DNA from: Escherichia coli
Lineage (GTDB): Bacteria; Pseudomonadota; Gammaproteobacteria; Enterobacterales; Enterobacteriaceae
Length of the DNA: 64,000 nucleotides
Reading direction: 5' to 3' (one strand)
NCBI RefSeq assembly: GCF_024223415.1
Contig: NZ_CP100500.1
Shown here one piece after another: positions 48,350-48,698 of the stretch (position 1 is its first letter; each line of letters opens with the position of its first letter). The translations under genes and the position numbers were made by a program. Below the pieces are notes generated by a model. It searched no databases, was not told where the DNA came from, and saw only the letters and a program-made list of their open reading frames with translations.

Positions 48350-48398
48350 CTGATTAAACAGGGAAGTTAAACATTAAAATTGAATGGATTTTCAATGA

Positions 48399-48436
48399 AC
48401 TGTAGGCCGGATAAGGCGTTTACGCCGCATCCGGCA
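48399..48436. repeat. REP unit downstream of epmB, bracketed by 16-bp direct repeats at 48353..48368 and 48468..48483
   Basis: ctgtaggccggataaggcgtttacgccgcatccggcaag; flanking attaaacagggaagtt occurs twice. Confidence 0.6.
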
Positions 48437-48698
48437 AGAGCAACCAACGCAAGTACAGCAACCTGCCATTAAACAGGGAAGTTTAATCTTTGCCCGTTGC
48501 ATAACCTTTAATTATTCATATACATTGCTGTTGTTACTCTTTATATAGCTAACACCAATAATTAACCTTTCTTTTCTGTTTATATAGAGTGAGCACGGCT
48601 ACTTATGTTATTTTAACAACTATTATTACCAAGCCCATTCATCTGGCTTATAAATTAAAATTAATTATTTAATTGAGAAATGGTTAGGGAGAACCTAC

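What the first reader, a model, noticed from the sequence alone, without database searches (positions are those of the whole stretch)
48353..48483. 16-bp direct repeat brackets the REP unit downstream of epmB
ATTAAACAGGGAAGTT occurs at 48353..48368, 4 nt after the epmB stop, and again at 48468..48483. The ~100 bp between them contains a canonical REP palindrome. A REP unit framed by a duplicated flank looks like an insertion footprint or a recombination product, not the usual unduplicated REP context.
Basis: seen in the sequence. Interest (0 to 1): 0.3.

Follow-up and report, generated by a model that had tools for sequence, protein, structure and literature searches.

The report
Duplicated hairpin flanks a BIME-1 insertion
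The 16-base repeat is real: it is the duplicated target sequence on either side of an old insertion of a known E. coli repeat element (a BIME-1, here half deleted), and four other BIME-1 sites I compared with element-free strains show the same duplication, which hints at how these elements insert and are lost.

Summary
Observation confirmed. ATTAAACAGGGAAGTT occurs only at 48353-48368 and 48468-48483 (0 of 100 shuffles).

What lies between is more than a lone REP. It is the Y-REP half of a BIME-1 (Z1 REP, long linker, Y REP) with its roughly 30-nt outer motif. A 45-bp deletion removed the Z1 half in this lineage.

Among 5,426 complete E. coli genomes:
- 3,304 carry the element, nearly all as a two-REP BIME-1 with an imperfect second repeat copy.
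- 2,104 carry one 16-mer and no element.
- 10 share the window's one-REP junction.

E. albertii has the empty site. E. whittamii and three other divergent Escherichia lineages have the filled site. The empty site is a hairpin (GATTAAAC-AGGGAA-GTTTAATC) just after the epmB stop, and the repeat is most of that hairpin.

The same architecture recurs at yjeJ-yjeI, pitA-uspB, srmB-yfiE and fbaA-mscS, with duplications of about 14 to 37 bp. Of 27 distinct BIME-1 loci, 6 exceed the 99th percentile of mismatched-flank controls (P about 2.5e-7).

The insertion enzyme and the excision route are inferred. The element is already known. I did not find the hairpin duplication described in the papers I could search, and the older BIME papers were not held.

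The parts
47321..48349 (+). epmB coding sequence (context); stop codon TAA at 48347-48349
   Evidence: ORF list; annotated as epmB in matching RefSeq records
48353..48368 (+). Direct repeat copy 1 (ATTAAACAGGGAAGTT): 5' arm, loop and first 3 bases of the 3' arm of the target hairpin; it cannot form the hairpin on its own
   Evidence: comparison with empty alleles
48369..48382 (+). Remnant of the BIME-1 Z1-side outer motif (AAACATTAAAATT, compare canonical CAAACGCAAAAYT) and the junction of the 45-bp deletion (CATTAAAATTG, 48372-48382) that removed the Z1 REP
   Evidence: alignment with K-12 and others, where the deleted block lies between CATTAAAATTG and CATTGAAATTG; canonical motif from 27 loci
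48383..48401 (+). Remnant of the long linker (L) of the BIME-1
   Evidence: alignment with two-REP alleles
48402..48435 (+). GTAG tetranucleotide plus Y-type REP palindrome (GCCGGATAAGGCGTTTACGCCGCATCCGGC)
   Evidence: (inverted repeat I3); sub-threshold Rfam naRNA4 (REP) match
48436..48467 (+). Y-side outer motif of the BIME-1 (AAGAGCAACCAACGCAAGTACAGCAACCTGCC). This version is unique to the locus but is a diverged copy of the dispersed motif ATGAACAAAGCGCACTTTGTCAGCAATCTGA
   Evidence: unique in genomes; similarity to the motif at 14374-14404 (K-12 variant p = 0.001); that motif has a median of 8 places per genome; consensus
48468..48483 (+). Direct repeat copy 2, identical to copy 1 in this strain
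   Evidence: the other filled E. coli alleles I fetched have 13-15 of 16 identical between the two copies
48468..48488 (+). Retained target hairpin (ATTAAAC-AGGGAA-GTTTAAT, then C); in empty alleles it is GATTAAAC-AGGGAA-GTTTAATC
   Evidence: (I12)
48699..49568 (+). yjeJ coding sequence (context)
49587..49754 (.). Second BIME-1 in the yjeJ-yjeI spacer with the same architecture: target hairpin 49587-49607, Y-side outer motif 49608-49637, inverted Y REP 49638-49671, linker, Z1 REP 49708-49736, Z1-side outer motif 49737-49754. The second hairpin copy was lost here by a 10-bp deletion

Best explanation
The two 16-mers are a target duplication left by an old insertion of a BIME-1 into a small hairpin just after the epmB stop codon. 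A BIME-1 is the E. coli REP doublet (Z1 REP, long linker, Y REP) with its two outer motifs.

Shown:
- The empty site is a single hairpin, GATTAAAC-AGGGAA-GTTTAATC.
- The filled site has the element between two direct copies of ATTAAACAGGGAAGTT.
- The insertion predates the split of E. coli from E. whittamii and the other divergent Escherichia lineages sampled.
- In this window's lineage a 45-bp deletion between CATTAAAATTG and CATTGAAATTG removed the Z1 REP, leaving one REP.
- Four other BIME-1 loci show an empty allele with one hairpin and a filled allele with two direct copies. The duplications are 14-37 bp long, roughly the size of each local hairpin.

Inferred:
- The duplication arose at insertion, from cuts on opposite strands on either side of (or within) an extruded hairpin followed by fill-in. 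This would explain why its length varies between sites.
- RayT, which cleaves single-stranded DNA at C|T sites near REP hairpins, is the candidate enzyme.
- The arrangement repeat-palindrome-repeat is a classic substrate for RecA-independent replication slippage. Such slippage removes the element precisely and restores the single hairpin. This is the likely origin of the empty allele in 39% of E. coli, as in precise excision of Tn10 and Tn5 between their 9-bp duplications.
For: - Repeat real and non-random.
- Three allele classes; the empty allele is exactly 115 bp shorter than the window.
- Counts: 3,304 filled, 2,104 empty, 10 window-type of 5,426 genomes.
- E. albertii is empty with a diverged single site, ATTAGACAGGGACGTT. 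E. whittamii, Escherichia sp. E1V33, strain E69 and sp. MOD1-EC7003 are filled with the same left junction and the same insert. E. whittamii, E1V33 and E69 also keep a proportionally diverged second copy; MOD1-EC7003 has lost it.
- In trees of the flanking genes, the empty E. coli alleles nest inside filled lineages.
- The right flank of the insert is the dispersed BIME-1 outer motif, so the repeat abuts the true end of the element.
- At the neighbouring yjeJ-yjeI BIME-1, E. albertii and all the divergent lineages are filled and carry a 13-of-14 to 13-of-15 repeat. Several E. coli have the single hairpin, so precise loss does happen there.
- Empty/filled pairs with whole-hairpin duplications at pitA-uspB (27 bp), srmB-yfiE (23 bp) and fbaA-mscS (37 bp).
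- 6 of 27 distinct BIME-1 loci exceed the 99th percentile of mismatched left/right flank pairs, and 10 of 27 exceed the 95th; binomial P = 2.5e-7 and 3.7e-7.
- Loops and asymmetric stem positions show the copies are direct, not inverted.
- Predicted folding pairs the start of copy 1 with the bases after copy 2 across the whole insert, which brings the repeats together.
Against: - No mechanism known for REP/BIME or for IS200/IS605-type Y1 transposases makes target duplications (PMC2817692). The enzyme step is therefore pure inference.
- At epmB-yjeJ and yjeJ-yjeI the duplication covers only part of the hairpin and the Z1-side outer motif is truncated. The simple model of cuts at both feet of the hairpin therefore needs a secondary deletion or a microhomology join (for example GATGA at yjeJ-yjeI and CAAAAGCAA at fbaA-mscS).
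- 17 of 27 loci show no flank repeat above the 95th percentile of controls. This could be decay, or could mean the signature is not universal.
- Polarity within E. coli is not proven. A precise deletion is indistinguishable from an allele that never carried the insert. All 2,104 empty alleles carry A at repeat position 8, none carries the T of most second copies, and the region is a recombination mosaic.
Confidence: 0.72

Rival explanations
1. The insertion footprint is real, but the empty allele in E. coli is the never-occupied ancestral haplotype, kept as an old polymorphism or spread by homologous recombination. On this view it is not a product of precise excision between the repeats.
For: - E. 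albertii is empty at this site.
- All 2,104 empty E. coli alleles carry the copy-1/ancestral base A at position 8, and none carries the T found in most second copies.
- The five empty strains I fetched with enough flank to see both sites are also empty at the BIME-1 site 1.1 kb away, as expected for one unoccupied haplotype.
- The region is visibly mosaic.
Against: - Every lineage that branches deeper than E. coli proper, except E. albertii, is filled with the same insert. Empty alleles nest within E. coli in the epmB and yjeJ trees, and their flanks are typical E. coli, not deeply diverged.
- At the linked yjeJ-yjeI site even E. albertii is filled, so the empty state there must be a secondary precise loss.
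- All four combinations of filled and empty at the two sites exist (window, A30/FCI1, E. albertii, B2/E strains), so the two sites do not behave as one haplotype.
- Ancestral second copies with A at position 8 exist (window, Santai, E. whittamii). Excision from such an allele gives the observed product.
Confidence: 0.25
2. The repeat has nothing to do with the element's arrival. The filled arrangement is ancestral, the two 16-mers arose by chance or by a small local duplication, and they merely served later as deletion end points.
For: Short direct repeats flank about 10% of small variable segments in E. coli and are associated with deletions in general (PMC2884548).
Against: - A chance 16-mer pair is essentially excluded.
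- The repeat abuts the canonical end of the BIME-1 on the Y side.
- The outgroup E. albertii has a single copy.
- The same architecture with locus-specific repeats recurs at four other BIME-1 loci and is enriched over mismatched-flank controls.
Confidence: 0.05
3. Both copies are kept by selection because the sequence is a functional RNA or DNA signal, such as a terminator or mRNA-stabilising hairpin for epmB or a regulatory site for yjeJ. On this view the REP simply sits inside a conserved structure.
For: - The empty site folds as an 8-bp hairpin followed by TTT (-11.3 kcal/mol, z = -2.0).
- The E. albertii version keeps pairing through a G-U pair.
- The second copy plus TAATC still forms the hairpin in the window.
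Against: - No terminator-like or promoter-like site is called in 48250-48750.
- Copy 1 lacks the 3' arm and cannot fold.
- In the other filled E. coli alleles I fetched, one or other copy carries 1-3 substitutions, including in the 3' arm (G14 to A). MOD1-EC7003 has deleted copy 2 altogether.
- 39% of genomes do without the second copy.
Confidence: 0.05
4. The unit is a conventional miniature inverted-repeat element (MITE) moved by a DDE transposase, and the 16 bp are its ordinary fixed-length target-site duplication.
For: The full-length BIME-1 has inverted-repeat outer motifs (AGAYTGMTGACAAA at both ends) and flanking direct repeats, which is superficially MITE-like.
Against: - Duplication length varies from about 14 to 37 bp between loci, roughly with hairpin size. 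DDE elements give a fixed length.
- No cognate DDE transposase is known for REP/BIME. The associated enzyme is the Y1 HUH protein RayT (PMC3333891).
Confidence: 0.03

Closest known systems
BIME-1 (also called RIP or RIB elements) of E. coli: one Z1 and one Y palindromic unit in inverted orientation, separated by the long L linker that often binds IHF
   Same: Orthologous alleles (K-12 and most filled strains) have exactly this structure at this site. The window keeps the GTAG plus Y REP, part of the linker and the outer motifs. The location is extragenic, at the 3' end of a gene. Presence/absence polymorphism and 'excisions of a whole BIME-1' between strains were reported by Bachellier et al. 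1997 (cited in PMC3333891; the wording is from my memory of the abstract, because the paper is not held).
   Different: The window allele has lost the Z1 unit. The flanking duplication of a target hairpin is not mentioned in any paper I could read. The original BIME papers could not be consulted.
REPIN-RAYT systems and the IS200/IS605 family (Y1 HUH transposases acting on single-stranded hairpins)
   Same: These involve REP doublets as the mobile unit, a single-copy rayT in most E. coli, and cleavage at C|T next to REP hairpins in vitro (PMC3333891). The BIME-1 outer ends carry C|TGA (GAGAC|TGATGAC and CAATC|TGA), resembling the iREP-I site TGCC|TGAT (my comparison).
   Different: IS200/IS605 elements insert next to a fixed short sequence and make no target duplication (PMC2817692). 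Here 14-37 bp of target are duplicated. How REPINs insert is described as unresolved (PMC3116915; 2026 preprint).
Precise excision of Tn10/Tn5 and other palindrome-containing inserts by replication slippage between their target duplications (established knowledge, recalled from memory)
   Same: Direct repeats flank a long imperfect palindrome. Loss restores the original single copy exactly. Repeats shorter than about 30 bp imply a RecA-independent route (see also PMC2884548).
   Different: Not tested here. Only the population-level outcome (empty alleles) is seen, not the event or its genetic requirements.
Bacterial MITEs (ERIC/IRU, Correia, RUP)
   Same: Small non-coding element, terminal inverted repeats, flanking direct repeats, able to fold into a long hairpin (PMC3184786).
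   Different: MITEs have short target duplications of fixed length and derive from DDE insertion sequences. The review states that REPs do not display MITE signatures.

Membership tests
BIME-1 (RIP/RIB) | Y-type palindromic unit with the adjacent GTAG tetranucleotide | tested here: met
   GTAG plus GCCGGATAAGGCGTTTACGCCGCATCCGGC at 48402-48435
BIME-1 (RIP/RIB) | A Z1 palindromic unit in inverted orientation next to the Y unit | tested here: not met
   Absent from the window allele. Present at the same site in K-12, CUVET16, O25:H16, E. whittamii and others (GCCTGATGCGCTACGCTTATCAGGCCTACA), and lost here by a 45-bp deletion. The window therefore holds a BIME-1 remnant, not a complete BIME-1.
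BIME-1 (RIP/RIB) | Long L linker, frequently with an IHF-binding site | tested here: inconclusive
   Two-REP alleles have a linker of 29-39 nt between the two REPs, resembling other L linkers (TTGAAT core). The window keeps only its 3' part (48383-48401). IHF binding was not tested.
BIME-1 (RIP/RIB) | Single copy per locus, extragenic, at the 3' end of a transcription unit | tested here: met
   One element between the epmB stop and the yjeJ start
BIME-1 (RIP/RIB) | Conserved outer flanking motifs shared with other BIME-1 copies | tested here: met
   The Y-side flank resembles the motif at 14374-14404 (p = 0.001 for the K-12 variant). That motif is dispersed, with a median of 8 places per genome. 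Consensus from 27 loci.
REPIN-RAYT system | Two REPs in inverted orientation forming the mobile doublet | tested here: not met
   The window has a singlet. The ancestral allele was a doublet.
REPIN-RAYT system | A cognate rayT gene in the same genome | not testable with these tools
   rayT is not in the 64-kb window. It is single-copy in 3,574 of 5,426 E. coli genomes. I could not query the window's own genome (100% match to strain S51) individually.
Transposon-type target-site duplication | The flanking repeat is present once at the unoccupied site | tested here: met
   CFT073, O157:H7, five further strains and E. albertii have one copy and no element. The same holds at four other BIME-1 loci.
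Transposon-type target-site duplication | Fixed duplication length characteristic of the element | tested here: not met
   16, about 14, 27, 23 and 37 bp at the five loci with empty/filled pairs
Intrinsic terminator | G+C-rich stem followed by a T run | tested here: not met
   No terminator-like site in 48250-48750. The stem is A+T-rich and is followed by only TTT.

The most novel reading that the evidence does not exclude
BIME-1 elements (the E. coli REP doublets or REPINs) insert at hairpins just downstream of genes, often transcription terminators. In doing so they duplicate part or all of that hairpin, leaving a target duplication of variable length (about 14-37 bp). This signature fits neither IS200/IS605-type single-strand transposition nor DDE transposition. 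It points to staggered cleavage around an extruded hairpin or cruciform, or to a replication template switch at a stalled hairpin. The resulting repeat-palindrome-repeat then allows clean excision. If correct, natural 'before' and 'after' alleles such as epmB-yjeJ, yjeJ-yjeI, pitA-uspB, srmB-yfiE and fbaA-mscS make the long-unresolved insertion mechanism of REP elements directly testable.
Probability: 0.4. Interest if true: 0.7.

Novelty: new member of a known kind. Interest (0 to 1): 0.45.

Why it matters
REP and BIME elements make up about 1% of the E. coli chromosome. They influence mRNA stability and termination, and their positions differ between strains. How they insert in vivo is still described as unknown (PMC3116915; 2026 preprint).

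This locus is a clean natural example with all three states: empty hairpin, full element with duplicated hairpin, and half-deleted element. The same signature at four other loci suggests a rule, namely that the target is a hairpin and the hairpin is duplicated.

That rule constrains the mechanism. It also explains why such elements sit at gene 3' ends and why they can disappear without a scar. In practical terms, the epmB-yjeJ spacer has three easily typed length alleles across E. coli.

For the single locus alone the result is ordinary: a known element at a known kind of polymorphic site.

Tried and rejected
- **Longer degenerate duplication reaching into the epmB 3' end:** rejected. Flanks beyond the 16-mer are no more similar than shuffles.
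- **Insert's right flank copied from another locus:** rejected. That exact sequence has one place per genome. It is instead a diverged copy of the dispersed BIME-1 outer motif.
- **More distant outgroups:** Salmonella enterica subsp. diarizonae and Pseudescherichia vulneris cannot be aligned just after the epmB stop, and P. vulneris lacks yjeJ, so they say nothing about polarity.
- **Excision product carrying the T variant of copy 2:** none found in 5,426 genomes.
- **Rfam:** only sub-threshold naRNA4 (REP325) matches, which simply reflect the REP.
- **Promoter and terminator scan:** nothing in the spacer.
- **Third BIME-1 in the window (rnr-rlmB, 14276-14404):** polymorphic, but by replacement with a different single REP rather than presence/absence, and it has no flank repeat.
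- **Predicted folding energy of DNA next to BIME-1 ends against DNA 80 nt further out:** weak on the Y side (p = 0.02) and absent on the Z1 side. I do not rely on it.
- **Original BIME-1, RIB and BIME papers (PMC1207841, PMC413762, PMC333889):** not held. I cannot exclude that flanking repeats were noted there.
- **Whether the window's own genome has rayT:** not possible. Only the collection-wide count was obtained.

Full report
**1. The observation**

The 16-mer ATTAAACAGGGAAGTT occurs at 48353-48368 and 48468-48483 and nowhere else in the window, even with two mismatches. None of 100 dinucleotide-preserving shuffles gave two matches. The repeat extends to 18 of 19 bases. Beyond that the flanks are unrelated: local alignment against shuffles gives p = 0.64 upstream and 0.52 downstream.

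The context is efp (minus strand, 46713-47279), epmB (47321-48349), yjeJ (48699-49568), yjeI and groL. Copy 1 begins on the fourth base after the epmB stop. GTAG plus a Y-type REP palindrome lies at 48402-48435.

**2. What lies between the copies**

Alignment with other E. coli shows three alleles of the epmB-yjeJ spacer.

- **Filled, two REPs.** Most filled strains, including K-12, read: copy 1, AAACATTAAAATT, an inverted Z1 REP (GCCTGATGCGCTACGCTTATCAGGCCTACA), a linker of 29-39 nt, GTAG plus Y REP, 32 nt, copy 2. This is the definition of a BIME-1 given in PMC3333891.
- **Window allele.** It lacks 45 bp, namely the Z1 REP and the start of the linker. The missing block lies between CATTAAAATTG and CATTGAAATTG, so it is a microhomology deletion.
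- **Empty allele.** One 16-mer and no element.

The 32 nt after the Y REP occur once per genome in this exact form. They resemble the sequence after the Y REP of another BIME-1 in the window, at 14374-14404 (p = 0.001 for the K-12 variant). That motif is itself dispersed, with a median of 8 places per genome.

In 27 distinct BIME-1 loci recovered from metagenomes, the consensus outer motifs are GAGACTGATGACAAACGCAAAAYT before Z1 and ATGAACAAAGCGCACTTTGTCAGCAATCTGA after Y. The two are inverted repeats of each other. So copy 2 of the 16-mer abuts the true end of the element. On the other side, copy 1 abuts a truncated outer motif.

**3. Population and phylogenetic distribution**

| Allele | Complete E. 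coli genomes (of 5,426) |
|---|---|
| Filled (right flank plus copy 2, always a single place) | 3,304 |
| Empty junction (GCAGTAACTG-16-mer-TAATCTTTGCC) | 2,104 |
| Empty junction with the T found in most second copies | 0 |
| Window's one-REP junction | 10 |
| Window's exact right junction | 7 |

The empty class includes CFT073, LF82 and O157:H7.

In the other filled E. coli alleles I fetched, the second copy has drifted: ATTAAACTGGGAAGTT...TGGGAAATT...TGAGAAATT or ...TGGAAAGTT. In strain Santai the first copy has drifted instead. The perfect 16/16 pair is therefore unusual.

Outside E. coli proper:
- E. albertii has the empty site with a diverged sequence (CTG ATTAGACAGGGACGTT TAATC).
- E. 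whittamii, Escherichia sp. E1V33 and strain E69 (a separate species-level representative in the genome collection) carry the same two-REP insert with both copies, diverged in proportion.
- Escherichia sp. MOD1-EC7003 carries the insert but has lost the second copy.

In neighbour-joining trees of epmB and yjeJ rooted on E. albertii, all deep branches are filled and the empty E. coli alleles nest among filled E. coli alleles. The SNP table shows the region is a recombination mosaic, so these trees are only approximate.

**4. The target is a hairpin**

The empty site reads GATTAAAC-AGGGAA-GTTTAATC, an 8-bp stem that starts three bases after the stop codon. As RNA it folds at -11.3 kcal/mol with z = -2.0. 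The scan does not call it a terminator.

The repeat is the 5' arm (minus its first base), the loop and three bases of the 3' arm. In the filled alleles only the second copy can still form the hairpin. In the window the predicted fold pairs the start of copy 1 with the bases after copy 2, across the whole insert.

**5. The same architecture elsewhere**

Five loci have an empty allele with a single hairpin and a filled allele with a BIME-1 between two direct copies.

| Locus | Empty allele | Duplication in filled allele |
|---|---|---|
| epmB-yjeJ | GATTAAAC-AGGGAA-GTTTAATC | 16 bp |
| yjeJ-yjeI (1.1 kb downstream) | GAGGCTGG-AAGTAT-CCAGCCTC | about 14 bp |
| pitA-uspB | single hairpin (O157:H7) | 27 bp, whole hairpin AAGCGGGCCAG(TAAA)CTGACCCGCTCG |
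| srmB-yfiE | single hairpin (O157:H7) | 23 bp, whole hairpin |
| fbaA-mscS | single terminator (ATCC 25922) | 37 bp: fbaA terminator hairpin, T run and 12 more bases |

At yjeJ-yjeI, several strains (PSUO2, WP4, K_EC180, SX4, isolate 68, A30, FCI1) have only the hairpin. The window, K-12-like strains, all the divergent lineages and E. albertii carry the BIME-1 between two copies of the hairpin's 3' arm. The copies are CATCCAGCCTCAGA and CATCCAGCCTCTGA in E. whittamii, and CCATCCAGCCTCAGA and CCATCCAGCTTCTGA in E. albertii.

Because even E. albertii is filled at yjeJ-yjeI, the empty E. coli alleles there are best read as precise secondary losses.

Loops and asymmetric stem positions show the copies are direct, not inverted.

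Across the 27 distinct BIME-1 loci, I aligned each left flank to its own right flank and compared the score with mismatched pairs. Six loci exceed the 99th percentile of mismatched pairs (0.27 expected) and ten exceed the 95th (1.35 expected). The binomial probabilities are 2.5e-7 and 3.7e-7.

The other two BIME-1s in the window do not add support:
- The rnr-rlmB element (14276-14404) has a hairpin right after its Y-side motif but no second copy, and its alternative allele is a different single REP.
- The window's yjeJ-yjeI element has lost its second copy through a 10-bp deletion.

**6. How it most likely works**

*Shown.* The repeat is a duplication of target sequence on either side of a complete mobile-looking unit. 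The unoccupied site has one copy. The duplication length varies from about 14 to 37 bp and roughly follows the local hairpin.

*Inferred, insertion.* Insertion involves breaks on opposite strands on either side of, or within, an extruded hairpin or cruciform, and fill-in then duplicates the hairpin. A template switch at a hairpin-stalled replication fork, re-copying the hairpin on return, is an alternative. The truncated Z1-side motifs and short shared sequences at three junctions fit either a microhomology join or a later deletion. Examples are GATGA at yjeJ-yjeI, and CAAAAGCAA resembling CAAACGCAA at fbaA-mscS.

*Candidate enzyme.* RayT cleaves single-stranded DNA at C|T near REP hairpins, for example TGCC|TGAT (PMC3333891). 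Both BIME-1 outer ends carry C|TGA. rayT is single-copy in 3,574 of 5,426 genomes and is not in this window. Its role is untested. Known Y1 transposition makes no duplication.

*Inferred, loss.* Slippage between the direct repeats, favoured by the palindromic insert, removes the element exactly. This follows established knowledge on Tn10/Tn5 precise excision, and the general association of short flanking repeats with deletions in E. coli (PMC2884548).

**7. Rivals**

- **Empty E. coli allele as a never-occupied ancestral haplotype.** It remains possible at about 0.25. For it: all empty alleles carry A at repeat position 8, and the five empty strains fetched with enough flank to see both sites are empty at both. 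Against it: the filled state of all the divergent lineages sampled, typical E. coli flanks on the empty alleles, the existence of all four combinations of states at the two sites, and the filled E. albertii allele at yjeJ-yjeI.
- **Chance or unrelated local duplication.** Disfavoured.
- **Both copies conserved because the sequence is functional.** Disfavoured.
- **Fixed-length DDE-type MITE.** Disfavoured. Details are in the rivals section.

**8. Comparison with what is known**

The element is a BIME-1 (RIP/RIB) remnant. It meets the Y-unit, location and outer-motif criteria. It fails the Z1 criterion in this strain only.

Strain-to-strain presence/absence of BIMEs is known, as are 'excisions of a whole BIME-1' (Bachellier et al. 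1997, cited; the abstract wording is from memory). So is enrichment of BIMEs in strain-variable segments (PMC1187871).

None of the papers I could read mentions a target duplication or hairpin duplication at REP/BIME/REPIN insertions. Several state that the insertion mechanism is unknown or that REPs lack MITE-like signatures. The original 1991-1997 BIME papers were not available, so priority cannot be settled here.

**9. Verdict**

As a single locus this is a known element at a known kind of polymorphic site, in a rare half-deleted form with an unusually well-preserved flanking duplication. The wider pattern is the interesting part and deserves a proper genome-wide test: a hairpin target and a hairpin-length duplication, with five empty/filled pairs and enrichment among 27 loci.

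Noticed in passing
window 49587-49754 (yjeJ-yjeI spacer); loci L008-L012, L017-L027: A second BIME-1, 1.1 kb downstream, is also present in some strains and absent in others. It sits in a G+C-rich hairpin (GAGGCTGG-loop-CCAGCCTC) between the convergent genes yjeJ and yjeI and is flanked by a 13-of-14 to 13-of-15 direct repeat of the hairpin arm in E. whittamii and E. albertii. The window has lost the second copy through a 10-bp deletion.
   Followed up: yes
window 14276-14425 (rnr-rlmB spacer); L028, L029: A third BIME-1 has a hairpin (CCCTCTTC-TGTTT-GAAGAGGG) directly after its Y-side outer motif. About 30% of E. coli genomes carry a single, different REP (GCCGGGAGCGCCACGCTTGCCCGGCCTAC) at the same place, so this is replacement rather than presence/absence.
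   Followed up: partly
27 BIME-1 loci from L030-L149: Full-length BIME-1 has conserved outer motifs that are inverted repeats of each other (AGAYTGMTGACAAA). Both contain C|TGA, which resembles the RayT in-vitro cleavage site TGCC|TGAT. The element therefore looks like a palindrome of about 160 bp with defined termini.
   Followed up: partly
L023 (E. coli UC4224, NZ_CP104472.1), epmB-yjeJ spacer: An IS621 copy (IS110 family; frameshifted transposase) is inserted inside the Z1 REP of this very BIME-1 (…TTATCAGGCCT|TGTATTATCC…). This is an instance of an insertion sequence sitting inside a REP, as reported for other IS elements.
   Followed up: no
L006 (E. coli 13C1079T, NZ_CP019267.1), epmB-yjeJ spacer: An ISVsa5 (IS4-like) insertion replaces or interrupts the distal part of the same spacer, another independent disruption of this region.
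   Followed up: no
L007 (NZ_ABFU01000112.1, 'Bacillus coahuilensis m4-4') and L013 (DAAV01000145.1, 'Bacteroidales bacterium H10' MAG): Contigs filed under non-Escherichia organisms encode YjeJ at 98-99% identity, and L007 carries the K-12-type BIME flank. This is almost certainly E. coli contamination in those assemblies.
   Followed up: no
L005 (GPEC1258) and L026 (FCI1), spacer downstream of copy 2: Two E. coli strains carry a spacer that is about 90% identical to typical E. coli and closely resembles the E. whittamii version (CATTAGCCTTAAATATTC…). This suggests introgression of the region from a divergent Escherichia lineage.
   Followed up: partly
L012 (Escherichia sp. MOD1-EC7003): This filled allele has lost copy 2 and the following TAATCTTT through a small deletion (…CAGCGACC|GTTGCCCG…). 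The flanking repeat can therefore be destroyed, which would lock the element in place.
   Followed up: no
collection-wide: At megablast sensitivity rayT is found in only 3,574 of 5,426 complete E. coli genomes, in three identity bands (>=99%, 95-99%, 90-95%). I did not examine whether its absence correlates with empty BIME-1 sites.
   Followed up: no
L014/L015 (Salmonella enterica subsp. diarizonae): In one of two contigs yjeJ is called as two short ORFs (72 and 136 aa) with YjeJ Pfam hits, and in the other no gene is called there, so it may be a pseudogene. The spacer after epmB is unrelated to the Escherichia one.
   Followed up: no
window 7528-7562: A single inverted Y-type REP (GCCGGATGCGGCGCGAGCGCCTTGTCCGGCCTAC) with no partner REP nearby. 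Not examined further.
   Followed up: no
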